Origin: Naegleria gruberi | Lineage: Eukaryota | Length of the DNA stretch: 64,000 nucleotides | Reading direction: 5' to 3' (one strand) | Assembly (NCBI GenBank): GCA_000004985.1 | Contig: GG738849.1 | Part shown: positions 1-39,454 of the stretch, piece by piece | Layout of the letters: the number at the start of each line of letters is the position of its first letter | How positions within the stretch are numbered: position 1 is the first letter of the stretch | The notes under the pieces: model-generated | Databases searched by the model: none | What the model saw: only the letters and a program-made list of their open reading frames with translations | What the model was told of the DNA's origin: nothing | Made by a program: the position numbers and the translations under genes

Positions 1-824
1 GGCATTGGATTTACTTGAAACAAATGGCATCCAAGTCGACGAAGTGATTTATGTTGTACTTTTGACTGCATGTGCAAACGATGTGTCAATAGAAAAAGGT
101 GAGCATGTTATCAAACTAATAGAATCGTCTGGAATGCTCACAGACCATATTATGTACGGAGCTGTTGTAAACTTTTATGCCAAAATTGGAAATATTCAAA
201 AAGCTCTGTATTTTTTCAATGAATATGATGGCCCTCCTGAAAGTCTTTAATGATGTGGAAAGAGCTGAGAGAGCATTTAACATTTTATTAGAGCTCGATA
301 AGGAGCAAGCAACTCATTATGTTCTAATGTCGCATGTGTACCTTCAAAGTGATCAACCAGAAAAAGCAAAAGAAATAAGGGAATTGATGAAAAAAAATGA
401 GGTACAAAAGACACCTGGCATTACTACAATTGAAATTAATGGCAAAACTTATCATTTTTACTACAATGACGAAAGCCACCCCAAAAAGGAGGAAATATTT
501 CAAGAATTGGACAAGTTATGCCAAGAAATGGAGCTCGCAGGCTATGTTCCAGACACGAGATGGGTTACTAAAACGGATGCCAATGATGAAGAAACAAAGA
601 AACATTTACTTTCAAGGCATTCTGAAAAAATTGCATTATCATTTGCTTTCATTTCCCTTCCACCTGGATCACCAATAACAATACGAAATAATCTGAGAAT
701 GTGTGGAGATTGTCACACAGCAACAAAGTTTATATCAAAAATCAGGAAGTGTGAAATTACGGTTAGAGATGCCAGTAGATATCATCACTTTAAGGATGGA
801 AAGTGCAGCTGTGGAGACTTTTAA
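1..824 (+). CDS. DYW-type pentatricopeptide repeat (PPR) RNA-editing factor, 5'-partial at the window edge. A PPR repeat is followed by E1/E2 and a DYW cytidine-deaminase-like domain with the HSEK..CGDCH..HHF..CSCGDF signature. There is an apparent 1-nt frameshift near 245-248.
   Basis: ORF 5-250 has a PPR motif (YGAVVNFYAKIGNIQKALYFFNEYDGPPES). ORF 177-824 has the E-domain consensus (ALLKVFNDVERAERAFNILLELD, HYVLMSHVY, TPGITTIEINGKTYHFYYNDESHP) and the DYW domain (HSEKIALSFAFI, CGDCH, RYHHFKDGKCSCGDF). The two frames overlap at 171-250. Removing one T from the T-run at about 246-248 gives a continuous PPESLNDVERAERAF. Confidence 0.8.
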
Positions 825-2862: not shown

Positions 2863-4028
2863 TTAGAGAAAAGTTGGATTGGCAGTTGTAATGGATGGTT
2901 CCTCTGTTGATGTAGTTCCTTCCAATTGAGAATAGGTTCCGACATTACCCTCCCTTCTCTTCCCATATTCATCTAATACATTGTGAGCTACCAATACAGC
3001 ATCTCTGTCATAGGTTTCATAATCGAGTGGTCTTCTTCTCACAGTGGCTGAAGTAAATCTCGACTTGACATTAGAGACACCTGAAGTACCCTCATGTTTT
3101 GTGAGAGCTCCTGTATTTTGTTCGGCGATACTCTTTCTGAATGCAATTTTCACTTCTGGATCCAATTCTTCGATACGATGAATTTTACCATCTCTCATGT
3201 AGACAACTCTGTCAGCTGCATTTTTCAAGTTAGGGTCGTGAGTAACCATGACCATTGTAATTCCATCTTCCTGATTGAGTTTGATGAGTAGATCCATAAC
3301 ATTAAGGGTATTTTTTGTATCCAAGTCACCACTATAAATCCATATCAGGTTTTCAGGTTTAGAATATTAGTCAATTCAATGTTAAAGTTAAATTAGAAAA
3401 TGTTAGAAAATTCTAAATAAATGAAATACATACGTTGGTTCATCTAAAAGTAAAATTTCTGGGTGATTAGAAATGGCTCTGGCAATTGTGACACGCTGTT
3501 GTTCACCTCCTGACAATTGATTAGGAGAGTGATCGAAACGATGTCCCATTCCAACTTTTTCTAACAACTTTTTAGCTCTTTCTCTTCTTGTTGATTTACT
3601 CACATTTCCTTGTAAAATCATTGGCATTTCCACATTTTCCAAAGCAGACATTGTTGATAATAAGTTAAAAGTTTGAAATACAAATCCCATTCTAGCCAAT
3701 CTAATATTGGCCAATGTTTCATCCTTTGTATTTGAAGTAACACGTTCTCCACAAATTGTCAAGTGACCCTTTGTTGGTTTATCAATAGTTCCAATAATAT
3801 TCAACATGGAGGTTTTACCACCTAAATGTGTGATGAAGATGTGTTGTTGATAATATTATTAATATTATTTATCACAATTATTATTATCATCATCATATCA
3901 TTAAATACACTACCTCCTGAAGTTCCGTAAATAACAAGAAATTCTCCTCTTTTCACTTTTAAATTAACTCCTCTCAAGGCAGGAACACCTTCAATACCTA
4001 ACAAGTAGGTTTTTTGAATATTATCCAA
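2863..4028 (-). CDS. Soluble bacterial-type ABC ATPase (LolD/MacB/FtsE-like nucleotide-binding domain, ABCH-like) with three exons: 3914-4028, 3434-3821 and 2863-3332.
   Basis: Walker A YGTSGG|GKTS is reconstituted across intron 1 (3822-3913, gtagtg..tttag). Q-loop, signature LSGGEQQRVTIARA and Walker B ILLLDEPT are in exon 2. Intron 2 (3333-3433, gtatgt..tatag) joins to GDLDTKNT..VTHD (D-loop and H-loop). Splice phases are consistent (1 and 2). Confidence 0.85.
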
Positions 4029-4821
4029 TTCTATTATATAATCAGTTGTATCAACTTCTCCGACTTGTTTGAAGAGACTAAATTATTCGAAATATTATAT
4101 AAATTCATATTACGATCCAATTAAAATCACATACTTTTCAAATCCCTTGTTAAAGTCCTTCTCCTCCGTATTTTTCATAATGTTGATGGATATGTTTTTA
4201 ATGATGATGGATAATGATGATTATCACTGTGGTAGAGGTCTTTTTTTTAATTGATGATTGTGACGATTCTTGCTATTGAGCGCATATTCAACTCCGCTTC
4301 TAACATAACAATTAAATTTACTTTACAATATATTAATATATATTAAATTTTTAATCATTTACAGCACGTTTACTTCAAATTTGACGCGTTTTTTGAAAGA
4401 AAATAAATTATTTAGAAAAAATTTTGTTGTTCTTCTGTTGTCAAATCCAAAATAAGCATTTCAATAGAACAACACCTAACCACTCGTTCTTACTCATTTC
4501 TACATATTTTTGAGAATGCTGCCACCCCAAGGGGTATGTCAATGCGAGGATTCATAATTTGAAGTCAGATTTCAAAACTACCTTAATTCCATCGAGAAAT
4601 TAGCATTTTGTTGAATAAAATATTATCGTTACAGATTCTTTTCAAATGGAGTTGAGTTTACTTGCCAAATCAAAATTGAAAGATGAAATACTTTAAATTT
4701 TAAAAAAAACAATTTTAATTTCCCCAAATCTTGTCAAACTTGAAGTAAACGTGCTGTACAATTCAATAATTTAAACTTGATGTAAGAAAACAATACAATA
4801 GAAACAACAACGGAAGAAAAA
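4029..4821. promoter_or_regulatory. Divergent intergenic region shared by the ABC ATPase gene (- strand) and the GspG-like gene (+ strand). It presumably holds a bidirectional promoter.
   Basis: About 790 bp of AT-rich non-coding sequence lie between two divergently oriented start codons (4028 and 4822). Confidence 0.4.
4359..4760. repeat. Inverted repeat pair of about 28 bp with one mismatch, arms at about 4359-4386 and 4733-4760, flanking a spacer of about 346 bp.
   Basis: tacagcacgtttacttcaaatttgac at 4361-4386 is the reverse complement of gtcaaacttgaagtaaacgtgctgta at 4735-4760. A partial third copy (agtttacttgccaaatcaaaatt) lies inside the spacer near 4655. Confidence 0.6.
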
Positions 4822-6048
4822 GTGAAAGTGTCCAAATCTCCAACAAGACAACTTAAAAAAATTATGATGCACAATTCAAAGACCCAACCATTCTCCATGA
4901 TGGGTCACACACCACTATCATCGGAGAGGAGGAAATATCGAAGAATGGAACAAATTATAAAACATCTTATACCTTTTGCAACTATTAAAAGTAGTAGTAG
5001 TATTGAAGAAAATAATTATTGTACAACAAGTGTAAATAATAATAGAAAATGTGAAAATAATAATCAAATGATGGAAATATTACAATTTTTAATAAGACAC
5101 ATTCTTGTTACTAAAAGGAATAATAAGGATTCTATCAATCAATTAAATATAATCCTACAAAAATATATTCAACAAACGAATGGGGATTTTAAAAAGTATT
5201 TACCAATCGGAATTATTGCAGGACTGATATGTGCAAACAAATATAATCAAAATAATAGTACTATATCGAATAGATTTAATATTGTAAAAAACATTTTTAG
5301 TAACAGTGCTGGAATTTTAAAAGATAACAATATTGCAGTCACAATTCATCATTTGAGTATGATTGAAATTTTAATTGCCATTTCAATTATTGTTACATTT
5401 TCTGGACTTACAGGAGCTGTGCTTGCACAAGTTTACGAAGAAAGTCGTGTGAGTAATGCCTTGTTAGATTTGGCAAAATTACAGGAAGGACTAGTTCTTT
5501 ATTTCACAAGACATGGTAAATATCCACTTTCACTTGAGGATTTATTAGAAGGAGGCGAGTTGAATAAGGTTCCAAAAGATCCTTGGGGAACAGATTACCT
5601 CTATGTCCCTCACCTCGATTGGAATCGTCTTAATAGAATTTTACTCACCACAACAACAAGCAATAGTGGAAATAATTCTACTTCACAACAACAATTAACA
5701 TATTTCAATGAAGTATTGAAGAGAATGGAAACTGTTCTGATAACATTACCTGGAGGTGTCACACCCATGTCATTACTAGCAATTGCCAATGAACAACCTT
5801 TCTGTATTTGTGTGGGAACAAAGATACCTCGTTTCCCAAGCAAGATTGATGTTGATGTATCGAGAGAACGTATCAGATATGTGGCCAATTTGATGAAAAT
5901 GTCTATGGAGAGAAGTAGTGTTGCTGGAAGTGTTCAATCCAATAATCAACAAGGTGTCACCTCAATAATGAATCAAATTACTGAATTGAATGCCAGAATT
6001 AAGAATATTTTAAATGTTACCAGACAAGCATCAGGTGGTGGAGAATAA
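4822..6048 (+). CDS. gspG: Type II secretion system major pseudopilin (GspG/PulG-like) homologue inside a 408-aa eukaryotic protein. There is an N-terminal extension of about 175 aa (basic, presequence-like), a pseudopilin domain at about nt 5350-5640, and a C-terminal extension of about 140 aa.
   Basis: Hydrophobic N-terminal pilin helix LSMIEILIAISIIVTFSGLTGAVLAQ with a conserved Glu. It is followed by EESRVSNALLDLAKLQEGLVLYFTRHGKYPLSLEDLLEGGELNKVPKDPWGTDYLYVP. This matches the GspG core (ALE/ALD..Y....YP...GLQAL......LPKDPWGNDY.) almost motif for motif. The N-terminus MKVSKSPTRQLKKIMMHNSKTQPFSMMGHTPLSSERRKYRR is basic and hydroxylated, like a mitochondrial presequence. Confidence 0.85.
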   Translation: MKVSKSPTRQLKKIMMHNSKTQPFSMMGHTPLSSERRKYRRMEQIIKHLIPFATIKSSSSIEENNYCTTSVNNNRKCENNNQMMEILQFLIRHILVTKRNNKDSINQLNIILQKYIQQTNGDFKKYLPIGIIAGLICANKYNQNNSTISNRFNIVKNIFSNSAGILKDNNIAVTIHHLSMIEILIAISIIVTFSGLTGAVLAQVYEESRVSNALLDLAKLQEGLVLYFTRHGKYPLSLEDLLEGGELNKVPKDPWGTDYLYVPHLDWNRLNRILLTTTTSNSGNNSTSQQQLTYFNEVLKRMETVLITLPGGVTPMSLLAIANEQPFCICVGTKIPRFPSKIDVDVSRERIRYVANLMKMSMERSSVAGSVQSNNQQGVTSIMNQITELNARIKNILNVTRQASGGGE

Positions 6049-8229: not shown

Positions 8230-9327
8230 TTACAAAAATTCAGGATCTTGAAAATCTTTTTTACATAACCAACAGGCACTAATAACAAACAGTATTACAC
8301 AACAAACTCCACCCAGCAAACAAAAGCCTACAATACCATATATAATGGCAATAAATAATACAGCAACTTTCTTAACCTCGTAATAGCAGGTTCCTGTATT
8401 TACATCTCTTATTTGGAACGCTTTAGAGGTGGAACATGACATGTAAGAGGTAAAGTCACTAATTAGACCAACTCTTTTCAGATATGAAACCAGTTCTCTT
8501 CCTCCTGATTCGTAATCATAGGCTGTTGCTGTAATACTTGGGTATTGACAAGTACTCGACGAGTTACACATGTAAATAATTTCTGGCATTACAGCTCCGT
8601 CATAGTAAAAGTTGACACTAACTGTATGGGCGTATGTTTTTCCATGTGAAATTATTCTTCTCACCTTAATATTATTGTAAACTCTGACATACCAATTTTG
8701 AAAAATTTTGTCGCCATTGTTGTTGTAAAACTCATCCAAATTATTTGAAAGAACAAGATCAATGGTAGAACCAGAAGGTGATCTTAGTTCTACACTGATT
8801 TCTTTCAAATTTTCTCTTGGTGCATACTTTTGTTCAGCGTGATGAGTGGCCAAAATAAAGGTCAAAACATCACCAAATGTTTGGTTACTATTCACAAATT
8901 GATTTCTCAAATATGGCTTTCCATTAATCAATTTTGGTGGAAACGTTTCTTCAGCAGTACTAAAGTTTGCAGCATAACATTTGGCACACATTGATGTCGA
9001 TCCAAAAATCGTATAACCGGTATCACTATTTCCCACGTTATAGTCAGCACTCGATGTTCCATCTGAGGATGTTGTTGATTGTTGATTTGTTTTGTACATT
9101 TCACCTCCATCCCATCTTATTAAATCTGCAAAGCTATCAAGAAATGGTGTCGAGTCAGAAAGGGCCGAAAGGAAAGTCTCCGATGAAGAGCTAGCAGCCT
9201 TATTATTTCCCTCTATTGTTGATAATTGCATACAAAGAGCAAATACCAATAAAATTAGCATTATGAATATATATTTTCCATTGTAAAATAACAAATTGGA
9301 AGTAGACCTCTTCGCTAACGTCGTCAT
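8230..9327 (-). CDS. Hypothetical type I membrane protein: a signal or anchor helix, a large Ser/Thr/Asn-rich ectodomain with many N-glycosylation sequons, and a C-terminal transmembrane helix with a short Cys-rich tail.
   Basis: 365-aa ORF with an N-terminal hydrophobic segment (IFIMLILLVFALCMQ) and a C-terminal TM (VAVLFIAIIYGIVGFCLLGGVCCVILFVISACWLC). No recognisable catalytic motifs. Confidence 0.5.
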   Translation of the reverse strand: MTTLAKRSTSNLLFYNGKYIFIMLILLVFALCMQLSTIEGNNKAASSSSETFLSALSDSTPFLDSFADLIRWDGGEMYKTNQQSTTSSDGTSSADYNVGNSDTGYTIFGSTSMCAKCYAANFSTAEETFPPKLINGKPYLRNQFVNSNQTFGDVLTFILATHHAEQKYAPRENLKEISVELRSPSGSTIDLVLSNNLDEFYNNNGDKIFQNWYVRVYNNIKVRRIISHGKTYAHTVSVNFYYDGAVMPEIIYMCNSSSTCQYPSITATAYDYESGGRELVSYLKRVGLISDFTSYMSCSTSKAFQIRDVNTGTCYYEVKKVAVLFIAIIYGIVGFCLLGGVCCVILFVISACWLCKKDFQDPEFL

Positions 9328-9681: not shown

Positions 9682-10416
9682 ATGAGAACAAGACGAAGTG
9701 TTATAATTGCAGAGTCATCGGATGATGAGTTGATGGATGAATCTTCGGATAGTGATAATGATAACATATTTCAAGATGAAGAAGAGGAAGAGGAAAATTC
9801 AAATCAAATTGTTCTTGAACCACCAACAAGTTTTGAACACATTCCGATAATTAAATTGGACAAGGATTATTTCATGACAGCAATTTATATTAAAAAGTTC
9901 CTGCACCAGAGTGATTATGACTTGGTAAAGGCATTCAAAGAGTTTGGACAGGAAAAAGATAGGAAAGTGCTTCACGGAAGAGATATGGCAAAATTGGTTC
10001 ACTTAAGCCAACACCACTATCTTTCCAGTGATTTAGAGATAAAGCCGAATATCAAGGGTGTTGTTCTATTTAGAATGGAGTGGATTATTGAAATGTTTAA
10101 TAGAGAGATACTATCGAGTGAAAGTTTTGTCGAAAATGTCAATATAATAGATTTCATTATTGTATTCGATATGGAAAGAAATTGTGTTAACTTTAAGGAT
10201 GAAGTAATAGAAACACTCTTGGAATCTCAAAAGAAGCAACAGGAAGATAAGATTAAAGAGGAGGAGGACGCTGCGCAACCCTCTATTATTGAGGAGGAAA
10301 CATTTCACACATGCCCTATTAGAACTGAAGGAATTGAAAAATTTCAGGACTTTCTTAAACTCCACATCTCACACACTACCTCTGATCGATGCGTAATTAT
10401 GCCATTCGATTATTAG
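9682..10416 (+). CDS. Hypothetical acidic protein with an N-terminal D/E-rich stretch.
   Basis: 244-aa ORF with coding-like composition and an acidic N-terminus (SSDDELMDESSDSDNDNIFQDEEEEEE). I recognise no domain. Confidence 0.45.
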   Translation: MRTRRSVIIAESSDDELMDESSDSDNDNIFQDEEEEEENSNQIVLEPPTSFEHIPIIKLDKDYFMTAIYIKKFLHQSDYDLVKAFKEFGQEKDRKVLHGRDMAKLVHLSQHHYLSSDLEIKPNIKGVVLFRMEWIIEMFNREILSSESFVENVNIIDFIIVFDMERNCVNFKDEVIETLLESQKKQQEDKIKEEEDAAQPSIIEEETFHTCPIRTEGIEKFQDFLKLHISHTTSDRCVIMPFDY

Positions 10417-17612: not shown

Positions 17613-20041
17613 ATGTTACAACACCCATCATCAAATAGAAATGATGGCATGTCGGATGATTCATCATCGGAAGGAGAGGAAGAAGGCTATTCCCTAAGTG
17701 CAACCACTTTGAAAATATGTACAGACTATTTGGCTAGAATTAAAATGGTTCAAGAGGAATTGAACAATCAATTGAGCCTTGTACAAGGAAGAGGAACTAA
17801 TACATTCCCAGTATTAAAAGCTGGTGAGGAATGGAATGGAATTCGTGATGAGGAAATTGAAGCTCAATTACTGAATGATATTCTCAACTTTTTATGTTCT
17901 CCCGAACATGTCGACTATTTTGTGAGCATGTATGAATTTATTGAATTGTATTTTAGTGTGATGGCTACAAATACTTCAATTTGTGTGGCATCTCATATTA
18001 GAATTGTTAAATGTCTAGAGGAATATTATCACTTTTATGTACTTCTTGCGAATGAGGATCGTTATTCTGATTCTAGAATTATTTATGAAAATACTGTGAT
18101 TGTAAATATTGTCAAATATTTAATGAAATTTCTTGGAGAAATGTCAAAGTGTTTGAAAGGGAAAAATCTCAAGTATCTCTCTCTTTTCATGCATGGTATT
18201 GCAATTCTGGATAAATACTTACTAAAATTAATTTCTAATCAAAGGATTTTAAAGATTATTAACGATGCAATTTTGAATTTTTCAATAGAAATGTTTAATA
18301 CTCTTCTTCCATCTGAAGAGGATAACACTACCGATGCTAATTGTGATAGTGTAACACTCATCTGTGGTACATTATCAAAAATCCCCATCATACGGCAATT
18401 CTCTCACACTTTTATTTTGAAAAAGTATGACGAGTATCAAAATCAACCAAAGAAATTGTGGAATACTACATTTCAATTAGCTCTCTTGATTGGACTTTTC
18501 ACATGTAAAGGATATGATGATTTTTTATTTACAAATTTACAGCATTCAAATGAGCTAGTTGCCTATACTTGCATTTGGTCTTTGGGAACAGTTTGCGAGG
18601 ATAAAAAGCCACTAATTACCAAGTTACAACATATATATGTGACCGATAGTAGAGCCATGATAAAAAGGTCAATTTTGAAAATATTTTCTACCTATGTGAT
18701 GCAAGATGAGCACATTGGTATGGATATGTATGATTCGATATTTAAAATTTTGCCTCTCTCTGTCACTGATGATTTAAGGACAAAATCTGTAAGTTTATTT
18801 TGAATTTCAAGTATTAACCTTCACAGTATGATACCCTCACCTCTTCTTGGTTTTTAATGAGTTTAATTATTAAGAAATCCCAAAATAGAGATACATATAT
18901 TTTCAGTGTCATTGATTTGTTTGATGATTTGGAAAAGTCTATGAGTTTGCAATGTGCAGAGAGTGGTAGCTATGCAAAAATTGATCCTGGATTTAAAAAA
19001 GTTCACGCCGTCTATTTCAAGCTTTTATCAGATAAGAAAGTATTGAAATATTTGAGAAATAACCTAATCATGCAACGAAAATTGAGGGAGAGTGTTTTTG
19101 TATCACTTAGAAGAATGCTCTTCTCAGTGAGGATTGTAGATAAACATTTCACAGAAAATCTAGAGGACTATATGGGAGTGGTAGTTGGACTAATGGACGA
19201 TGAAATGATTCGATACATGAAGGAAGAACAATTAATAGTATCAAAATGCTTATTCAAAGCCAATGTGATTAACAAGCAAATGGGAAATTCATACTTTGCT
19301 CTAATAGCACAGCTGGGAGTTCACTTGGAAGATATTCTTACCATTAAGGAAATATTTTCACTCCTTACTGAGAGAATGCTCTTTCAAATTCCAAAGAAAA
19401 TTACACTGATCGATAAGGTAGAAGATGTGATAATACTACTCTACATATTGAATAGTATAGGAGAAGTATTGAGGACATATGGATCAAAGATTGTACAAAA
19501 CTCGTATTTGAAACCCCTCTTTCTCGAATCATTGGAGAATAATATTATCAATATTTTCAACTCTAAAGAGCTAATCAAAGGTGTTGGTTCAATTGGAAAA
19601 TCTGTAGATGTTATTGTAATGTTGAAATCCGTTTTTTGTAGTGTCATTTCAAAGATTTATTGCTATTGTGACAAGGATTTGATATTGAAAAACTTTAAGA
19701 AAGTTCGAGATATTCTATTATTTTATCCTGAACTGCCACATTTGAGAATGGGATTGGAGCAATTAGAATACTTTGCTTCATTTGTCGATATTTTGGAACA
19801 TGTCACAGATACAGATGAACGTGTTGATTTTGACTTTTTGCAGAATATTCAATTACTTGATAGGAGTGTATCGATATTGCACAGATTCAAGAATGCAACT
19901 GATGCTTTTTATTTCAGATCTGAACTTGGAGTCATTAATGAGGGAGAAAGTTTGACTCAAGACTGGAAAATGTTGGTCATCAAGTCTGTTAGATTGAGAA
20001 ACTTGTTAGAAACACAAATACAAGATTTGGCTCAGGCTTGA
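17613..20041 (+). CDS. Large hypothetical protein of about 790 aa. ORFs 17613-18803 and 18857-20041 join in frame if a 38-nt GTAAGT..CACAG intron (18789-18826) is removed.
   Basis: Two long adjacent same-strand ORFs in frames differing by 2. A canonical donor and acceptor lie between them and removal restores the frame. Helical-repeat-like composition. No recognised domain. Confidence 0.5.
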
Positions 20042-20099: not shown

Positions 20100-21800
20100 T
20101 TAATAGTCATCATCCTCATCCTCATCATACTTGTTGATATACTTTTCGTGGTCTGGATTTTTCATATAATTCTTAACATCCTCATCATAGGCCTCATTAT
20201 TCTCATGTTCATTAATTCCAAAAGGATCAACATGATGAATCTTGCCCTTCTTATCACGAACAGTCTTTACAGGAAGTTTTGGATCAGAGGAAATTTGCAT
20301 TTCATCATCGTCATTCTTGGCATAGTCAAATTCGTATGGATTAGTCTTGGCTTTCTTTTTTCTGATACCTTTCTTTTTATATTTACCAGATGATGATTTG
20401 GCTGTATGTTGTTCAAATGATTCCTTCTCCCTCAAACGAATGTACTTTTTGATAAGTTCCTTATTGGTATTGGAAAGTTTGTTATATTCCTTCTCTGAGA
20501 GATTATCCAAGTACTTTTCAATTTTTTCATCCATAAAACCGAATTTAGATTCATTAGAACCTGATTTCTTCTTTTTTGGATAAACTCTATCATAGATTTC
20601 TTGAGGAATTTGAACCTTAACCTTCTTCTTTGGTTTGATTTGCTTTTTTTTCTTTGGTTTTGGAGCTTTGTCTGTCTTGATGTTTTTGAATGGATCATAA
20701 AAGTTATAAGGATCGTCTTGATTCGCTTGCTCTCCATTTTGTGGTTCATTATTTGTTAAAGTTGGTTCTCTTTCTTGTGTTTGAGTGTTAGTATCAGTAT
20801 TGCTAGGAACTTCTGACACAGGTGGTGGATTGTTTGGTTTGGCAATTTGAGGTTCTTCCTTATCTACCAGAACCTCTTCTTCCTCTTCTTTGATTTCTAA
20901 TCTATTATTGTGTTGCTGATGGTGTTGCTGTGTGACATAATTGGAAGAATCAGTCTCGAGCACTGAAGCATTATTGGCCCAAACTTTGAAGCCGCCATAA
21001 ATCATGGCACCCAAAATAGCCAGCATAATCAATACGATTAGATATTTCAATAATCTACTACACATCGATTGTTTAGCTTTGCTTGCTGGTTTAAATTCCT
21101 TTTGTGTTGGAATATTTTGATGGGCTTGGTAGGATGGATAGGCTTGGAAGGAATTGGCAGATGAATGATGTTGCACATAACCATTATCGTTATGGGAAAC
21201 GGAAGACATTCCACTATTGTGCATAGCAGACGAAGAAAAATCAGATTGATAGGAAGAGATCATTGTGGGACTGCCTTGATGATGCAATGGTGGAATATTG
21301 CCGGAATGTTGTTGTGGCATTACTGTTGCTGATGGAATAAACTCTGGAACAGAATATCCGAGGGAGACATTCAAATTGTCCTCTTGTTGTGCTGAAAAAG
21401 CATTGGGAGATGGTGATGAAATGGAACCAGCAGATGGTACAAAAAACATGTGGGATTGTTTTTGAAAATTGTCCACTAATGGTTGATCAGATTTGGTTTT
21501 TGGTTGTCGTCTAAATCTCAATGGTTTATCAGTGCCTGTAGTGGTAGGACTATCATTTTGTTGAAGATCTTCATTAGATTCATTATATGAAACAAAATTA
21601 GCTTGTGGAGGCTCATTCATAGCAGGTATGTATTGAATTGATGAGGTTAAATTATCAGTATTTTCCATTTGTCCAAAATTTTGAAAACCATCCTCTGAGA
21701 CTGGTACATAATCGAGAACCATTGATTCATCGGAATTTGAATAACCAACTGTTGATACATTATAAGTGGGTGGTGAATATTGCTGATCAAGTTTTTTCAT
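20100..21800 (-). CDS. Hypothetical single-pass membrane protein with a Q/S/N-rich N-terminal half, a central TM helix and a Lys-rich C-terminal half.
   Basis: 566-aa ORF with TM LKYLIVLIMLAILGAMIYGGF and K-rich stretches (KAPKPKKKKQIKPKKKVK). No recognised catalytic domain. Confidence 0.45.
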   Translation of the reverse strand: MKKLDQQYSPPTYNVSTVGYSNSDESMVLDYVPVSEDGFQNFGQMENTDNLTSSIQYIPAMNEPPQANFVSYNESNEDLQQNDSPTTTGTDKPLRFRRQPKTKSDQPLVDNFQKQSHMFFVPSAGSISSPSPNAFSAQQEDNLNVSLGYSVPEFIPSATVMPQQHSGNIPPLHHQGSPTMISSYQSDFSSSAMHNSGMSSVSHNDNGYVQHHSSANSFQAYPSYQAHQNIPTQKEFKPASKAKQSMCSRLLKYLIVLIMLAILGAMIYGGFKVWANNASVLETDSSNYVTQQHHQQHNNRLEIKEEEEEVLVDKEEPQIAKPNNPPPVSEVPSNTDTNTQTQEREPTLTNNEPQNGEQANQDDPYNFYDPFKNIKTDKAPKPKKKKQIKPKKKVKVQIPQEIYDRVYPKKKKSGSNESKFGFMDEKIEKYLDNLSEKEYNKLSNTNKELIKKYIRLREKESFEQHTAKSSSGKYKKKGIRKKKAKTNPYEFDYAKNDDDEMQISSDPKLPVKTVRDKKGKIHHVDPFGINEHENNEAYDEDVKNYMKNPDHEKYINKYDEDEDDDY

Positions 21801-27111: not shown

Positions 27112-28359
27112 TTATCTCTTTCGTGCCTCAACTAAAAAGTAATGTGGTGCATAGACTGTTGTTTCACTATCATACTTCTGGGTAATGAAAATATCACAAA
27201 ATCCTGTATTCCACAAATTCTTTTCAAACTCGAGTTTTCTATCCAAAATCTTGTCAATTCCATCATTATTTACATGTTCTGTCTTGAAAAAGAGAGTACC
27301 TCCATGTCTCAAAATTCTATAATATTCTACTAAGAGTCTCTTATTTCCCAGAATGTTGTGCCCAATAAAATTGAGAACAACCCTCAAGAATCTATTCGAA
27401 GGGAATGCCATTAATGTCTTTACATCGAATGCGTCTCCAACGACGTCTGGATTTTCCTTAATATCAATATCGAGTGTGAAATAATTCTCCTTTCGAATAG
27501 TTGTATCATTATGCTTATCACCAATGATGAAAGCTTCTCCTCTGAATTGGGAAAAGGTTCTCTTATTGAAATGTAGAGGAGCCTTTTTGATATTCATTGA
27601 ACCTTCATTTGAAGTGAAAGAAACAACTTCCAAATTCTTCTCCAACCACAAATCAGCAATGGTCAACTTGCCATTATCTATTAATACAGTTATATACGGT
27701 TCATATTCCATAATTGCTTTTGGATAAATGACATTGATCCAAGCAAATGAGAAGCCAATACACTTGGCCAATTTTTCCTGATTGACATGATCTGGAATAA
27801 AAGTTCTATTCTTCAACCATTCATAACCATCAAAGTCATAATCTTCCTCATTCAAAAATTGTAAACTCCAAAATTTAGCCAAGAATAAATAACCTCTCGA
27901 TAGTGTCCACAGTTTCGAATGAAATTTTTTATCCCTTCCATATTTGAAATCTGAAAGTAATTCCAATAAATCATCTTGAATATTCTCCACTGATTCTTCC
28001 AAGAGAATGGAATGCAATTGTTTAATCATTGGTTCCTCGTCTCCCTCTACATAGGTCAGATCTTCCATTTTACTGAATACTTGAGCTGTATTGTCGAACA
28101 ATTCCAATACTAGAGGATCCTTCTCAATGTAAATTTCTTCACAATGATGTTTACAACAGTGGTGATGCTTTTGATCGTGATTGGAACAAGTATTGTCATC
28201 CTTTTTGATTGTTGTTGTTTTTGATTTCAAACTCTCTTCCGATGATTGAATCTGTTCACCATTCTGAGAATCATTTAGAGTTTCTTTGTGATGATCATGA
28301 TCATCGTGATGGTGGTGATGACTTCCACAGCATCCATCACTATTATCTCTATCACACAT
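27112..28359 (-). CDS. Class I SAM-dependent methyltransferase-like protein with a His/Cys-rich N-terminus (CCGSHHHHHDDHDHH, HHHCCKHHCEE).
   Basis: 415-aa ORF. The C-terminal part carries methyltransferase-fold-like motifs (VVGDAFDV, LRVVLNFIGHNI, YRILRHGGTLFFKTEHV). The N-terminal His/Cys clusters suggest metal binding. Confidence 0.55.
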   Translation of the reverse strand: MCDRDNSDGCCGSHHHHHDDHDHHKETLNDSQNGEQIQSSEESLKSKTTTIKKDDNTCSNHDQKHHHCCKHHCEEIYIEKDPLVLELFDNTAQVFSKMEDLTYVEGDEEPMIKQLHSILLEESVENIQDDLLELLSDFKYGRDKKFHSKLWTLSRGYLFLAKFWSLQFLNEEDYDFDGYEWLKNRTFIPDHVNQEKLAKCIGFSFAWINVIYPKAIMEYEPYITVLIDNGKLTIADLWLEKNLEVVSFTSNEGSMNIKKAPLHFNKRTFSQFRGEAFIIGDKHNDTTIRKENYFTLDIDIKENPDVVGDAFDVKTLMAFPSNRFLRVVLNFIGHNILGNKRLLVEYYRILRHGGTLFFKTEHVNNDGIDKILDRKLEFEKNLWNTGFCDIFITQKYDSETTVYAPHYFLVEARKR

Positions 28360-29107: not shown

Positions 29108-30070
29108 ATGAGAGCCTTATTTTCAAAGACTAAGGAGCCTAAAACTCCAACTTCACCATCTTCGCCAATGACTCCATCCTCCTCATCTTCACACTTGAGC
29201 AATTCCAATACACCAGATAAAACTCTCTCACCACTCGGTAGAAAGCTATCTTTCACATCAAGTTTTCATACTCCAAAGAGGAAGGATTCAAATAGTACAC
29301 ACATGAGTCCTTCTGCCCTCTCAACAAAGGAGTCCTATCATATGGCCTTCTGTGAGAATACACATTCTACACCAATAAGAAACATCAATATGGATCCTGC
29401 TACAACAACAGAGAAGGATTCTATTTTCAACAAGTATGATTACGATGAGGATGGTAATATTTTAGATCCACTGGTATTATTAATGGATAAGGAAGATGTT
29501 TTTATTGCCTCGTCAACATTTGGAAGACAAAAGGGAAATGATTTTGAGGAGTGTATATTAGTGTTTGGAAAATTAAACATGTACAGAATTATTAAGGATG
29601 CCACATACAAACCAAAATTATCAGAGATGGAATTGGAAGTGGATGAAGAAATCCAATCAAGAAAAGGTTCACTTAGAAAAGTAGCAAGAGAGGAAGAATT
29701 TGAAAGACTTGGAGCAAAGGATGTCACATCACTTCCACCAGAGGATGCTAAAAATCCACTCTTTATAAATGACAATGTATTCATTCAAACGGATATTACA
29801 GAACCATTCGAAGGAGTTGGATACAGATCAAGATGGGTGGTTAAGTGGAAGATTCCTTGGTGTATGGTAAACTCAATTCAAAAATGTGAGACCAATGATA
29901 GACAATTGGAGATTATATTACATGTAGTGGGAAGTGCAACTGGATTTTCAAAAAAGGAATACATCTGCACATCACCTGCCGATAGAGAAGTGTGGTACTT
30001 TACACTTTCGAATGTTTTCCAAGCTTATAATAAGGAATATTTTGAGAGTATGTATTTGGTTTATGATTAG
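29108..30070 (+). CDS. Hypothetical protein with an S/T-rich N-terminus and a PH-like C-terminal region.
   Basis: 320-aa ORF. The C-terminal segment (EIILHVVGSATGFSKKEYICTSPADREVWYFTLSNVFQAY) resembles the C-terminal helix of PH domains. Confidence 0.45.
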   Translation: MRALFSKTKEPKTPTSPSSPMTPSSSSSHLSNSNTPDKTLSPLGRKLSFTSSFHTPKRKDSNSTHMSPSALSTKESYHMAFCENTHSTPIRNINMDPATTTEKDSIFNKYDYDEDGNILDPLVLLMDKEDVFIASSTFGRQKGNDFEECILVFGKLNMYRIIKDATYKPKLSEMELEVDEEIQSRKGSLRKVAREEEFERLGAKDVTSLPPEDAKNPLFINDNVFIQTDITEPFEGVGYRSRWVVKWKIPWCMVNSIQKCETNDRQLEIILHVVGSATGFSKKEYICTSPADREVWYFTLSNVFQAYNKEYFESMYLVYD

Positions 30071-30645: not shown

Positions 30646-31876
30646 ATGGCCAGTCATGAATCTGCTGATGATGTGATTGAAAAGGTCGATGAAATGATCG
30701 ATTTAATTTCAAAATTTAGATCATCAGTACATACAATATTTACGGAATTAAATCCGCATAATCGTACTCTTGTTTCTCATCAAGTTTCCGTACCAAATAT
30801 TATAAAGGAAGAAAATCCAGAGGCATCACACAGTGAGCCTACACCATACCGAACTCATATATCATCATGTTTTCAACATGCATCATCTTATTTAGCAAAA
30901 TTAAAGGATTACCAAAAAGTTAATTTAACCAGCTCTAAATATTCAGGCTTGAAGACAATATTGAATGGAAGTGTGGATCGTCAAGGAGTTGATAAATTAA
31001 AATCCAAAGTAGATTCTACTTTACAAACACTATCAAAGGAAATTGAAAAGAAGAGATATGTAAGAGAAGATCCTGGTGATTTGGAATTGTTCGAAACTCC
31101 AAGAAAGGAGAGAATGAAAACTTCACCAAACTCTGTCATTCACAAAATTTCCAAGAGGGATGAATCATCCTACAAGGACCCTCAAGAGTTACTTTCCGAA
31201 TTGAAAGACAAATCTGGAAAATTCCACAACTATTTTAGTATTGTAGATCTTCTTAGTATTCACAAGGATGATAATCATTGCTCGGTATTTGTATGTTTTT
31301 TATAATGCAATTATTAACATTCCAATTAGTTAAGGGTTACTGATATTATGATTGTCAATATTTTATTCCGTGACAATATGACACCTTATGAAGCAAATGC
31401 CTTTTCCATTCATGAAAATGTTTATGAGACCTCAATTTCAGAACATAAGATTTTCAGGCAAGTTAGTAAGACTTTCTGTCAAGCTCTTGATTTTTACACT
31501 ACCCATCCAGTTTATAAAGCCATTCCATTCCAAGCCTTTATGGTAAGTTCTTCAAGCTAAGATATTGAATCTAATGTTTTATGGAAAATAGATTTACCTT
31601 TGTTTGTACAGAAAATTATTTATGGATAAATGTTCTCATAAGAATTGTAATTGTATCATGTCACCTCCACACATTATGGATTTGCCTTACTTTAGAGATT
31701 TTGAAACAGGTATTGCCTATCACATTCAACATATTCCAGTTAATAGAAGAGTTGACCTCAATCTTCCATTCACATCAGAATACAAGCAAAAAGAAATCAA
31801 AAAGAATACCGAGACGCCATCTATGAATACACCAATGAGTACATCCAATCAAACACCTCAAGTAAATGAACTCTAA
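30646..31876 (+). CDS. Hypothetical multi-exon gene (at least three exons) with candidate introns at about 31291-31328 and about 31543-31590.
   Basis: Three consecutive same-strand ORFs (30646-31305, 31348-31560, 31604-31876) are separated by short GTATGT/GTAAGT..AG segments. No recognised domain. Confidence 0.4.
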
Positions 31877-36931: not shown

Positions 36932-39454
36932 TTAGAAAGTTTGTTGGTGATCTTCTGCAAATATGCCAATTTTTCTCTTTACTCTGTTTAATAGAGCCTC
37001 TTCAATAGAGCTTGTTCCATTGACATAAAGTTCTTCTACCCATAATATTTCATTTACCCAAGGAGAAATAATTTGATTGTCTATAAGATATTCCACAATT
37101 TCCAATATTTCCATCTCTAGTTTTTGATTAATGCTTACTCGGTAAAGAATTTGCAAATGTTGCACCAGTTTTGGAGCTAGTTCAGCCATATTTCTTCTGT
37201 CTATTAAACAAGTGGAAAAGGCGTTAACATATAATTCGTCTAACTTGTCAATATGAGTTGAACCTTGTTTAAAGTTAGTAAAGCATTCTATTGTTTCAAA
37301 CATAGCATTGATTGATTCATTCAAAATTACAAGAGATCTCTCACCACCATTAAGAGCAACATCGTTTCTAATAATCCTATTACATGCCCAAAAAGCTTGC
37401 GACATTTTATCCACGATTATATTAGGAATCCAAAGCATGTCATCTTCAAAATCTTCCATATCAGCAATCTCCTTAATAATTATTGGCAAAATGTAATCAT
37501 AGATAAAATCCTTCTTTCCTCCTTCATTGATAGAATTATTAGTCAACATGTCCATGGAGAGATGAGTGTGTAATATTCCAATTTCACTCAAAGTTCCAAG
37601 CAATGTGAATAGTGAATGATATTGTGTGTATGCAAATGGATCTCCAATCTTAATGAGAATTCGTATTAGATTGGCAAGAAATGAATAGGAGTGTTTGTTG
37701 AAAGCTTCAAGTAGAGCTTTTCTTTCTATCCATCTGCAAATTTCTATCAACACCACCGTAAGTGGCACAATCATTGAATTAAACAGTTCCTGTATGCTGT
37801 AGCTTGACATTTCTTCTGTCTTTTCCTTAATATAGGAAAGAAGTTTCTCACATAGTACATTATCATTAATTAATTGAAATGCGTTTCCGATTAAGAGGAG
37901 GCATTGATTAATATTCTTCTTATGTAGGTTTGTTTTTTCTTCCTCGTTTTCAACTGTTAAATATTCCATCGTTTCATTCACACACACAGTTTCGAATAAA
38001 TTGTTAATCTTGAATTTCAAACCTTCCAAAATTGATTCACTAATTTCTGATTTGCTAATATTCAGACTGTTAGTAATGCCTTTCAACAAGGCACAATAAT
38101 CTGTGATATCATTACTACTCAATTCATGAGATTTAATGATACAATCAAGTAAATCATCAGAATAATAATTAGTTTTTGAAAAGAAAAGACCAAGGGCCTT
38201 CTTGGTGACTAATCTTATATCCCTATTCTCAGAGGAGAGTAATTTCTTACAAATTTGAATAATTGCAGAGACTTGATTCTTAACATTTTGAGTTTCAATC
38301 GAAGATAAATCAATTAGAGAAATACTGTCGAGAGCTGTTATGATAGATCTTTTTGCCAATAAATCTCCACTCTCCAACTCACTCTGTTGTTGCAAAGTGT
38401 CAAATATGAAATCCTTAAAGAGAGCTGCTACGTAAGATTTGTTTTTAAAGGCAGAAGGATCTTGTTTACAATCATAGTTCAATATATTACTAATCATTCG
38501 TAATATTTTGTGTTTGATTACCCAAACAGTCTTTCCATAATTATTTCTAATTCTTGGAAATAAATTTTCAGATATAATGGTAGAATCATCTTTGGTGTTC
38601 TTGATTTGTGCCAAATCATTCTCCATCATATCTAGAATGCATTTTGCAAAATTAATTGACAAGTGAAACAATTTTCCAAGTAATGTGAATAATTTTTTTG
38701 TAACATTTGTCTTCTTCTTTGTAGAACTAGCCTCAGCAAAGTTATAGAGACAAAAAATGAAATATCGTGCCAGTAAAAGACCGAAAGCCTGATTTTTGTA
38801 ATAGTTTTTAGCCTTAAGTTCATAATCATCCTCTGTAGGTGTTGTTATATATTCAATAAATTGATTCCAATAATAAAAGAGATCGGTCAATAACCAACTA
38901 TTTGCTCCTGATAAATAACTTTCAGGATTTTCTTTCAACAATTGATTCTTTCTTTCCAAAAAGTAATTAGAAACCGTTAACAATAGAAAACATGGTGGAA
39001 ATTCAGTAAATCCGACATGTGAAATTGGTTTTCTACACTTTAAAACTTCAGCATGCACCTTTACAATAAAATGTAAAACAACTTTTTGCCAATTCTCCAA
39101 ATTATCAATTCCACATTCGAATGGTTCCACTTCGGCACCTTTCCTCACCTCTTGATAAATATGGTTTGCACAACGAAAGAATTGGGGTATAATTCTCTCC
39201 TCTGCATAATCCATAAATTGACAAAACTCTCTCACTTCACAATTCATCCAATTACACGAAATGGCTGTGGAAAGGTAGTAATAAATTAGAATAATCATTT
39301 TCATGCAAGCTTGTTGCTCAGTATCCGAATCATATACTTCCGAATATACTTTCAACTCATTTTCATCACACAACTTTCCTANNNNNNNNNNNNNNNNNNN
39401 NNNNNNNNNNNNNNNNNNNNNNNNNNNNNNNAAACACGATTTGTTACAAGACAA
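36932..39454 (-). CDS. Large hypothetical helical-repeat (HEAT/ARM-like) protein. The CDS is interrupted by the assembly gap near its 5' end, and the true N-terminus lies beyond 39454.
   Basis: 840-aa ORF with alpha-helical repeat composition. The X-run in the translation coincides with the N-run 39382-39431. Confidence 0.5.
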   Translation of the reverse strand: MSCNKSCXXXXXXXXXXXXXXXXXXGKLCDENELKVYSEVYDSDTEQQACMKMIILIYYYLSTAISCNWMNCEVREFCQFMDYAEERIIPQFFRCANHIYQEVRKGAEVEPFECGIDNLENWQKVVLHFIVKVHAEVLKCRKPISHVGFTEFPPCFLLLTVSNYFLERKNQLLKENPESYLSGANSWLLTDLFYYWNQFIEYITTPTEDDYELKAKNYYKNQAFGLLLARYFIFCLYNFAEASSTKKKTNVTKKLFTLLGKLFHLSINFAKCILDMMENDLAQIKNTKDDSTIISENLFPRIRNNYGKTVWVIKHKILRMISNILNYDCKQDPSAFKNKSYVAALFKDFIFDTLQQQSELESGDLLAKRSIITALDSISLIDLSSIETQNVKNQVSAIIQICKKLLSSENRDIRLVTKKALGLFFSKTNYYSDDLLDCIIKSHELSSNDITDYCALLKGITNSLNISKSEISESILEGLKFKINNLFETVCVNETMEYLTVENEEEKTNLHKKNINQCLLLIGNAFQLINDNVLCEKLLSYIKEKTEEMSSYSIQELFNSMIVPLTVVLIEICRWIERKALLEAFNKHSYSFLANLIRILIKIGDPFAYTQYHSLFTLLGTLSEIGILHTHLSMDMLTNNSINEGGKKDFIYDYILPIIIKEIADMEDFEDDMLWIPNIIVDKMSQAFWACNRIIRNDVALNGGERSLVILNESINAMFETIECFTNFKQGSTHIDKLDELYVNAFSTCLIDRRNMAELAPKLVQHLQILYRVSINQKLEMEILEIVEYLIDNQIISPWVNEILWVEELYVNGTSSIEEALLNRVKRKIGIFAEDHQQTF
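39382..39431. other. Assembly gap (50 N).
   Basis: Run of n characters. Confidence 0.95.

What the first reader, a model, noticed from the sequence alone, without database searches (positions are those of the whole stretch)
4822..6048. A bacterial type II secretion pseudopilin (GspG) homologue encoded as a spliceosome-era eukaryotic nuclear gene: a component of a mitochondrial T2SS-derived system
Seen in sequence: residues of about 176-270 of this 408-aa ORF reproduce the GspG/PulG major-pseudopilin core. There is a hydrophobic N-terminal helix with the conserved Glu (LSMIEILIAISIIVTFSGLTGAVLAQ). It is followed by the alpha-beta loop motifs ALLDLAKLQEGLVLYFTRHGKYPLSLEDLLEGG and the near-invariant LPKDPWG.DY block (VPKDPWGTDYLYVP). 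The gene sits between unmistakably eukaryotic intron-containing genes (ABC ATPase, Elp3) and has the host's AT-rich codon usage. It carries a basic, hydroxylated N-terminal extension that looks like a mitochondrial presequence. Established knowledge: T2SS pseudopilins are otherwise restricted to Gram-negative bacteria. A mitochondrial T2SS-derived apparatus (GspD, GspE, GspF, GspG plus co-occurring Gcp proteins) has, to my recollection, been described in Naegleria, jakobids, malawimonads and hemimastigotes. This locus fits that rare, patchily distributed system. Inference: this is the pseudopilin subunit of that organellar secretion or assembly machine, and the rest of the system should be encoded elsewhere in the genome.
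Basis: partly seen in the sequence, partly recalled or inferred. Interest (0 to 1): 0.95.

Follow-up and report, generated by a model that had tools for sequence, protein, structure and literature searches.

The report
Naegleria mitochondrial pseudopilin GspG1 (known)
This gene really does encode a bacterial-type secretion pseudopilin (GspG) in the nuclear genome of the amoeba Naegleria gruberi, but it is the same gene (NgGspG1, XP_002681672.1) that was already described and tested experimentally in the 2021 paper reporting the mitochondrial type II secretion system, so it is correct but not new.

Summary

- **Identity.** The ORF at 4822-6048 is 100% identical to Naegleria gruberi XP_002681672.1 / NAEGRDRAFT_63068. 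The true CDS most likely starts at the ATG at 4864 and encodes 394 aa.
- **Prior publication.** Horvathova et al. 2021 (Nat Commun, PMC8134430) list this accession as 'Naegleria gruberi (GspG1)'. Both of their cloning primers match the window exactly.
- **Pseudopilin match.**
  - Pfam T2SSG scores above its curated cut-off.
  - hhalign against E. coli GspG gives 97.4% probability (E 1.2e-11), with the prepilin cleavage register and Glu+5 preserved.
  - GspH and GspI do not match.
- **Context.** The neighbours are ordinary eukaryotic nuclear genes, codon usage is host-like, and orthologues lie on 0.7-1 Mb eukaryotic contigs.
- **Corrections.** The GTG start is an artefact of bacterial ORF rules. 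Elp3 has no intron here. Published predictors did not call a presequence, although the first ~160 residues do target mitochondria experimentally.
- **C-terminal domain.** The ~145-residue domain occurs only in these mitochondrial GspGs and has no specific structural relative.
- **Verdict.** Already known; low interest as a discovery.

The parts
4864..6048 (+). Complete intronless CDS of NgGspG1 (394 aa plus stop).
   Evidence: 100% identity to XP_002681672.1/EFC48928.1/D2V2P2, which starts MMHNSK; sequence read
4864..5352 (+). N-terminal extension of 163 aa, very long and poorly conserved. It is net basic (K+R 21, D+E 9) and rich in N/Q and S/T. It acts as the mitochondrial targeting and pro-region and is removed in the mature protein.
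   Evidence: Composition. It aligns poorly between orthologues. The paper reports that residues 1-159/160 target mNeonGreen to T. brucei mitochondria, and that all proteomic peptides lie downstream of the processing site.
5347..5367 (+). Prepilin-type processing-site equivalent: I-H-H | L-S-M-I-E. L178 of the 408-aa ORF (L164 of the annotated protein) is position +1, and E182 (E168) is the conserved Glu+5. His replaces the bacterial Gly at position -1.
   Evidence: hhalign aligns TIHH|LSMIE with E. coli KQRG|FTLLE. H at -1 recurs in most of the aligned homologues. The paper marks the same Leu as +1.
5353..5430 (+). Hydrophobic N-terminal pilin helix and transmembrane segment, LSMIEILIAISIIVTFSGLTGAVLAQ
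   Evidence: It is the only strong hydrophobic segment in the protein (Kyte-Doolittle maximum 2.36). IEILIxISIIVTFSGL is invariant in 10 homologues. It forms part of helix 8-59 in the model.
5431..5610 (+). Pseudopilin globular core: the C-terminal half of helix alpha-1, a shortened alpha-beta loop, and the GspG signature block VPKDPWGTDYLYVP (strand beta-1)
5611..6045 (+). C-terminal 'novel domain' of about 145 aa, specific to mitochondrial-type GspG. It is mostly helical (helices at model residues 95-107, 113-135, 143-152, 176-198 and 207-233), with one short strand (FCIC) and a low-complexity linker.

Best explanation
Window 4864-6048 is the nuclear, intronless gene for NgGspG1. This is the major-pseudopilin (GspG) homologue of the mitochondrial T2SS-derived system (miT2SS) of Naegleria gruberi.

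**Shown here or in the literature:**
- The protein has a bacterial GspG-type N-terminal hydrophobic helix with Glu+5, and the GspG globular core.
- It localises to mitochondria.
- Its roughly 160-residue N-terminal extension carries targeting information.
- Only peptides downstream of the prepilin-type site are seen in mitochondrial proteomes.
- The soluble domain self-associates (Kd about 216 nM).

**Inferred mechanism:**
1. The precursor is made in the cytosol and imported into the mitochondrion.
2. It is anchored in the inner membrane by the pilin helix, with the globular part in the intermembrane space.
3. An unknown protease cleaves it after the His at position -1. No GspO homologue exists.
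4. A GspF platform and a GspE ATPase polymerise it into a short pseudopilus.
5. The pseudopilus pushes a still unidentified folded substrate out through a GspD secretin pore in the outer membrane.
6. The eukaryote-specific helical C-terminal domain would decorate or regulate that filament.
For: **Identity**
- 100% match to XP_002681672.1.
- That accession is listed as GspG1 in Supplementary Data 1 of PMC8134430.
- Both published primers match the window exactly.

**Homology**
- Pfam T2SSG is above its cut-off, and TIGR01710 gives E 2.7e-6.
- PDB hits are exclusively major pseudopilins.
- hhalign against E. coli GspG gives 97.4% probability, E 1.2e-11, with the cleavage-site register and Glu+5 aligned.
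- GspH (E 0.24) and GspI (E 0.069) are not significant.

**Structure**
- The AF2 model has pLDDT 88.8 and pTM 0.79.

**Nuclear eukaryotic context**
- Neighbours include PPR-DYW, copine, B9, an intron-containing ABC ATPase, Elp3, Prp18, P450, CCT, myotubularin and eIF2B-epsilon.
- Codon usage is host-like.
- Orthologues in N. lovaniensis and Willaertia magna sit on 716-kb and 1.0-Mb contigs among eukaryotic genes.

**Experimental data, from the paper**
- Antibody co-fractionation with mitochondrial markers.
- Immunofluorescence.
- Heterologous targeting.
- Self-interaction.
- FISH excluding an endosymbiont.
- Monophyly of the eukaryotic GspG proteins.
Against: - No pseudopilus, secretion activity or substrate has been demonstrated for the miT2SS in any eukaryote (paper discussion; review).
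- The bacterial Gly at position -1 is replaced by His.
- The sequence match stops at Pfam profile position 77/108, TIGR01710 position 104/134 and E. coli residue 113/145. The bacterial C-terminal strands and the Ca2+-binding loop are therefore not recognisable by sequence.
- The score is far below the NCBIfam equivalog cut-off (27.4 against 88.85 bits).
- Presequence predictors did not call a mitochondrial signal.
Confidence: 0.9

Rival explanations
1. The locus is a bacterial contaminant or an assembly chimera: a bacterial pseudopilin gene stitched between eukaryotic genes.
For: Pseudopilins are otherwise bacterial. The gene itself has no intron, so it carries no internal eukaryotic hallmark.
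Against: - GC3 (0.23) and RSCU (r = 0.85) are indistinguishable from the neighbouring genes.
- GC content is continuous across the region.
- The 163-aa N/Q-rich extension and the C-terminal domain have no bacterial counterpart.
- Orthologues lie inside 0.7-1.0 Mb eukaryotic contigs of two other heterolobosean genera, among dynamin, kinase, Kelch, PX/SH3 and sterol methyltransferase genes.
- A near-identical copy was recovered in an independent ENA assembly (P0011).
- The paper reports FISH to N. gruberi nuclei, antibody detection in mitochondria and proteomic peptides.
Confidence: 0.005
2. It reflects a recent, lineage-specific horizontal transfer of a bacterial pilin gene into Heterolobosea, unrelated to any ancestral mitochondrial machine.
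For: The distribution among eukaryotes is very patchy. According to the paper, no bacterial donor group can be identified.
Against: - The same three-part architecture (extension, nearly invariant IEILIxISIIVTFSGL helix, DPW core plus the unique C-terminal domain) recurs in sequences only 25-40% identical to this one. That implies an old family.
- The paper finds GspG together with GspD/E/F in heteroloboseans, jakobids and malawimonads, and GspG in hemimastigotes. The eukaryotic sequences form a monophyletic group on a long branch.
Confidence: 0.03
3. It is a type IV pilin (T4P) relative rather than a T2SS pseudopilin.
For: All type IV filament subunits share the N-terminal helix with Glu+5. 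PilA/type 4 pilin chains appear weakly in the PDB search (E 0.82). The paper notes that some eukaryotic Gsp genes could not be unambiguously assigned to T2SS rather than T4P using bacterial models.
Against: - The globular part carries the GspG-specific signature (KDPWG.DY).
- Every significant sequence and structure hit is a GspG/EpsG/XcpT/PulG major pseudopilin.
- The pilin hits cover only the N-terminal helix.
Confidence: 0.03
4. It is a genuine GspG descendant that no longer works as a secretion piston. For example, it could be a static inner-membrane or intermembrane-space scaffold, or a retractable fibre with another role, with its function shifted to the novel C-terminal domain.
For: - The minor pseudopilins, GspC/L/M and GspO are missing, and no substrate is known.
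- The bacterial Ca2+-loop region is not recognisable.
- The well-conserved, eukaryote-only C-terminal domain makes up more than half of the mature protein.
Against: - The polymerisation-relevant features are the most conserved parts of the protein: Glu+5, the nearly invariant hydrophobic helix and the signature loop.
- Self-interaction, and the GspG-GspF interaction of the malawimonad orthologue, are reported.
- GspD, GspE and GspF co-occur with it.
Confidence: 0.12

Closest known systems
NgGspG1 (XP_002681672.1) of the mitochondrial T2SS-derived system, Horvathova et al. 2021, Nat Commun 12:2947 (PMC8134430)
   Same: It is the same gene: 100% protein identity, the accession is listed as GspG1, and both cloning primers match the window.
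Bacterial major pseudopilin GspG/PulG/EpsG/XcpT (Pfam PF08334, TIGR01710; PDB 4lw9, 3fu1, 5wda, 1t92, 2kep)
   Same: - A prepilin-type N-terminus with Glu+5 and a long hydrophobic alpha-1 helix.
- An alpha-beta loop and the KDPWG.DY signature.
- hhalign probability of 97.4%.
   Different: - It has a 163-aa targeting extension instead of a leader of about 8 residues.
- His replaces Gly at position -1, and there is no GspO.
- The alpha-beta loop is about 15 residues shorter.
- The C-terminal strands and Ca2+ loop are not recognisable by sequence.
- It has an extra helical domain of about 145 aa.
- The gene is nuclear and has eukaryotic codon usage.
Other eukaryotic (mitochondrial-type) GspG proteins: N. 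lovaniensis C9374_001386, Willaertia magna ABK040_005818, and unnamed metagenomic and transcriptomic sequences
   Same: They share the mature architecture. The TM helix is almost invariant, and the DPW block and C-terminal domain are conserved.
   Different: The N-terminal extensions differ greatly in length and sequence. The genomic neighbourhoods are not syntenic.

Membership tests
Major pseudopilin GspG (T2SS protein G, PF08334 / TIGR01710) | Match to the family profile above the curated threshold | tested here: met
   PF08334 scores 24.5 bits against a gathering cut-off of 21. The stricter NCBIfam equivalog cut-off is not reached (27.4 against 88.85 bits). It is therefore a divergent homologue, not a bacterial equivalog.
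Major pseudopilin GspG (T2SS protein G, PF08334 / TIGR01710) | Prepilin (class III) N-terminus: a short polar leader, Gly at -1, a hydrophobic residue at +1, Glu at +5, and a hydrophobic helix of about 20 residues | tested here: inconclusive
   Glu+5, the hydrophobic helix and the register are met. Gly at -1 is not met, because His is there. The leader is 163 aa rather than under 10.
Major pseudopilin GspG (T2SS protein G, PF08334 / TIGR01710) | GspG-specific globular signature (alpha-beta loop plus the [KE]DPWG.DY block), distinguishing it from the minor pseudopilins and T4 pilins | tested here: met
   VPKDPWGTDYLYVP is present. hhalign gives E 1.2e-11 for GspG, against 0.24 for GspH and 0.069 for GspI. 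PDB hits are all major pseudopilins.
Major pseudopilin GspG (T2SS protein G, PF08334 / TIGR01710) | Pseudopilin fold (long alpha-1 helix packed on a small beta-sheet) | tested here: met
Major pseudopilin GspG (T2SS protein G, PF08334 / TIGR01710) | C-terminal beta2-beta3 region with the Ca2+-binding loop (a feature I recall from the EpsG/PulG structural literature, not checked here) | tested here: not met
   Profile matches end at position 77/108 (Pfam), 104/134 (TIGR01710) and E. coli residue 113/145. The C-terminal domain profile shows no similarity to E. coli GspG. Structural equivalence of one strand (FCIC) is possible but was not verified.
Major pseudopilin GspG (T2SS protein G, PF08334 / TIGR01710) | Cleavage and N-methylation by the prepilin peptidase GspO, and GspE/F-dependent polymerisation into a pseudopilus | not testable with these tools
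   The paper reports no GspO homologue in eukaryotes, peptides only downstream of the site, and a self-interaction Kd of 216 nM. No filament has been shown.
Mitochondrial-type GspG of the miT2SS (Horvathova et al. 2021) | Three-part architecture: a long N-terminal extension, a pseudopilin domain with a TM helix, and the conserved eukaryote-specific C-terminal 'novel domain' | tested here: met
   Alignments A1 and A3. The novel-domain profile retrieves only such proteins.
Mitochondrial-type GspG of the miT2SS (Horvathova et al. 2021) | Nuclear-encoded in a eukaryote that also encodes GspD, GspE and GspF | tested here: inconclusive
   The nuclear eukaryotic context is shown here. GspD/E/F are not in this window. 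Their presence elsewhere in the N. gruberi genome rests on the paper.
Mitochondrial-type GspG of the miT2SS (Horvathova et al. 2021) | Mitochondrial localisation | not testable with these tools
   Reported experimentally for this very protein: antibody fractionation, immunofluorescence, and yeast and T. brucei expression.

The most novel reading that the evidence does not exclude
The only part that is not already published concerns the C-terminal 'novel domain'. With a 21-sequence alignment, AlphaFold2 gives a confident single-unit model (pLDDT 88.8, pTM 0.79).

In that model the region after YLYVP is a five-helix assembly. It contains one short strand (FCIC, model residues 155-158), which probably pairs with the pseudopilin strand beta-1 (model residues 88-90).

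On this reading the domain is not simply appended. About 60 residues of helices would be inserted between beta-1 and a beta-2 equivalent, followed by a helical hairpin. Together they would replace the bacterial Ca2+-loop region and coat the outside of any pseudopilus.

I could not inspect coordinates, so the strand pairing is an inference.
Probability: 0.4. Interest if true: 0.3.

Novelty: already known. Interest (0 to 1): 0.12.

Why it matters
The biology is remarkable. A bacterial secretion nanomachine has been retained in the mitochondria of a few protist lineages, and it is argued to date back to the last eukaryotic common ancestor. But it was published in 2021, with this exact gene as the experimental workhorse, and reviewed in 2023.

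Several questions remain open: the substrate, the protease that replaces GspO, whether a filament forms, and the role of the C-terminal domain. None of these can be answered from this window.

Tried and rejected
- **Contig look-up.** An exact-sequence look-up for the N. gruberi protein itself returned nothing. I used the orthologues' contigs instead.
- **First AF2 model.** The 10-sequence model was poor (pLDDT 64.9) and its Foldseek hits were meaningless. Adding sequences from the representative search gave pLDDT 88.8.
- **AFDB search.** The afdb50 library was not available.
- **Novel domain as a disguised GspG C-terminus.** I asked whether 'PFCICVGTKIP' corresponds to bacterial 'DLLSAGPDG'. 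Sequence gives no support (hhalign E 0.67), so it stays a structural conjecture.
- **Homologues of the novel domain outside GspG.** I found none. The only non-GspG hit, P0029, is a bacterial tandem-repeat protein and looks spurious. There was no PDB sequence hit either.
- **Other miT2SS genes in the window.** I searched by Pfam on 31 ORFs, by a six-frame motif scan, and by neighbouring XP accessions in the paper's supplement. None turned up.
- **Adjacent orphan ORFs.** The ORFs at 17613 and 18857 are similar in size but are not paralogues.

Full report
**1. Observation**

The ORF at 4822-6048 (+) exists: 408 aa from a GTG under bacterial ORF rules. The quoted motifs are all there.
- The hydrophobic segment LSMIEILIAISIIVTFSGLTGAVLAQ is ORF residues 178-203 (window 5353-5430).
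- VPKDPWGTDYLYVP is residues 250-263.

The similarity to pseudopilins is not chance.
- Pfam T2SSG (PF08334) matches residues 205-262 at 24.5 bits, above its gathering cut-off of 21.
- NCBIfam TIGR01710 (GspG) matches residues 179-264 at E 2.7e-6, well below its equivalog cut-off.
- A phmmer search of PDB sequences returns EpsG/GspG/PulG chains as the best hits.

**2. Identity**

A search of about 5.8 billion proteins gives a 100% identical 394-aa protein from Naegleria gruberi. Its accessions are XP_002681672.1, EFC48928.1, NAEGRDRAFT_63068 and UniProt D2V2P2, on an 850-kb scaffold. The annotated protein starts at the ATG at window 4864 (MMHNSK...), so the GTG at 4822 is an artefact of the ORF-calling convention.

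Supplementary Data 1 of Horvathova et al. 2021 (Nat Commun 12:2947, PMC8134430) lists XP_002681672.1 as 'Naegleria gruberi (GspG1)'. The same accession appears in their mitochondrial proteomics table. Their pET42b primers for NgGspG1 match the window exactly and uniquely, at 5440-5461 (+) and 6025-6045 (-). The finding is therefore the very gene used in that paper for:
- antibody production and mitochondrial co-fractionation;
- immunofluorescence;
- heterologous targeting, where residues 1-159/160 carry mNeonGreen into T. brucei mitochondria;
- self-interaction measurements, with a Kd of 216 nM.

The paper also reports FISH evidence against an endosymbiont source, and monophyly of the eukaryotic GspG proteins. 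A 2023 review covers the system again (PMC10128026). A full-text search for 'miT2SS' finds only six papers, none of which changes the picture.

**3. Independent tests of homology**

I aligned the putative mature region with nine homologues (A1), and later with 20 (A3).
- In A1, IEILIxISIIVTFSGL, DPW and Y.Y.P are invariant.
- A profile of A1 searched against PDB sequences hits only major pseudopilins: 3fu1, 4lw9, 2kep, 3gn9, 5wda, 1t92 and 3g20.

I fetched the E. coli K-12 gsp operon and ran profile comparisons against A3.
- GspG gives 97.4% probability, E 1.2e-11, over 93 columns. TIHH|LSMIE aligns with KQRG|FTLLE.
- Leu178 of the ORF (Leu164 of the annotated protein) is therefore position +1, and Glu182 is the conserved Glu+5. 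This is the same assignment as in the paper.
- GspH (E 0.24) and GspI (E 0.069) are not significant. The protein is specifically of the major-pseudopilin type.

**4. Differences from bacterial GspG**

- The leader is 163 residues, net basic and rich in N/Q/S/T, instead of a handful of residues.
- Position -1 is His, not Gly.
- The alpha-beta loop is about 15 residues shorter.
- The sequence match ends right after YLYVP: Pfam position 77/108, TIGR01710 position 104/134, E. coli residue 113/145. The bacterial C-terminal strands and Ca2+-binding loop are therefore not recognisable.
- The remaining ~145 residues are what the paper calls the 'novel domain'.

I examined that domain separately.
- A profile of it, run against 1.84 billion representative proteins, finds 25 proteins. 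All but one (a spurious bacterial repeat protein) are GspG-type.
- It has no PDB sequence relative and no similarity to E. coli GspG.
- In the model it is mostly helical, with one short strand (FCIC).

**5. Genomic context and the chimera test**

The window is ordinary Naegleria nuclear DNA, about 35% GC. Pfam hits on the neighbouring ORFs include:
- a PPR E/E+/DYW deaminase, a copine and a B9 ciliary protein;
- Elp3, a FYRN/FYRC protein and a DRMBL nuclease;
- aminopeptidase P, cytochrome P450, Prp18 and a WD40 protein;
- a Ras-kinase protein, MTHFR, a second PPR protein and a CCT chaperonin subunit;
- myotubularin and eIF2B-epsilon.

The ABC ATPase upstream, on the minus strand, has two canonical GT-AG introns. 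One interrupts the Walker A motif (GTSG|GGKTS, intron 3822-3913). The other follows the Walker B motif (DEPT|GDLD, intron 3332-3433, starting GTATGT).

GspG1's GC3 (0.23) and its RSCU correlation with the other window genes (r = 0.85) fall within the range of those genes (0.74-0.95). Orthologues in N. lovaniensis (716-kb contig) and Willaertia magna (1.0-Mb contig) lie among typical eukaryotic genes, although not in synteny. A bacterial contaminant or chimera is excluded for practical purposes.

No other Gsp or Gcp gene lies in the window.

**6. Mechanism**

- **Shown.** The protein is homologous to GspG in sequence and fold. The polymerisation-relevant N-terminal helix and Glu+5 are conserved. 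It localises to mitochondria, it is recovered only as the part downstream of the prepilin-type site, and it self-associates.
- **Inferred.** It is imported, anchored in the inner membrane, and cleaved after His by an unknown protease. GspF and GspE then assemble it into a pseudopilus that expels a folded substrate through the GspD pore of the outer membrane.
- **Not shown by anyone.** There is no demonstrated filament, secretion or substrate. The main rival is that the protein has been repurposed as a non-piston scaffold. I rate this at about 0.12.

**7. Verdict**

Observation confirmed and interpretation supported. Novelty: already known. Interest as a discovery is low (0.12), even though the underlying biology is striking.

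Noticed in passing
window 4360-4758 (intergenic, between the ABC ATPase gene and GspG1): A ~400-bp element is bounded by inverted repeats. The arms are 4360-4423 and 4695-4758 (64 nt, 70% complementary). Their outer cores are a perfect 18-nt match, ACAGCACGTTTACTTCAA / TTGAAGTAAACGTGCTGT, with none expected by chance. It can be read as TA|CAGCACG...CGTGCTG|TA, so it looks like a MITE with a Tc1/mariner-type TA duplication. It ends about 105 bp upstream of the GspG1 ATG. This is the only copy in the window.
   Followed up: partly
window 177-824 (+) and 50717-52627 (-): The first is the C-terminal E / E+ / DYW deaminase module of a PPR protein (DYW E 2.2e-38); the gene runs off the window start. 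The second is another PPR protein. From memory, plant-type DYW editing factors are a known oddity of Naegleria; I did not check this here.
   Followed up: no
window 2866-4040 (-): An ABC-type ATPase gene with two short GT-AG introns (3822-3913 and 3332-3433) that split the Walker A motif and follow the Walker B motif. Its true start codon was not determined, because the first exon ORF begins at a TTG.
   Followed up: partly
window 8230-9327 (-), 9682-10416 (+), 17613-18803 (+), 18857-20041 (+), 20100-21800 (-), 27112-28359 (-), 29108-30070 (+), 30646-31305 (+), 36932-39454 (-): Nine ORFs of 219-840 aa have no Pfam match at E <= 1e-3 (the last one at E <= 1e-4). The adjacent, similar-sized ORFs at 17613 and 18857 are not paralogues (BLASTP E 1.9). 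No gene with a neighbouring XP accession appears in the Gsp/Gcp table of PMC8134430, but these ORFs were not mapped to accessions or compared directly with Gcp sequences.
   Followed up: partly
window 39600-43886 (-): A 1428-aa protein combining a Ras-family GTPase domain and a protein kinase domain (ROCO-like architecture).
   Followed up: no
P0011 (ENA, 2,844-bp contig), homologous to window 4822-6048: An independent assembly carries a 406-aa near-identical variant called from the same upstream in-frame position (MKVSKSPTRQLKKIM...). It differs by a few residues in the N-terminal extension. It probably comes from another N. gruberi strain, called with a prokaryotic gene finder.
   Followed up: no
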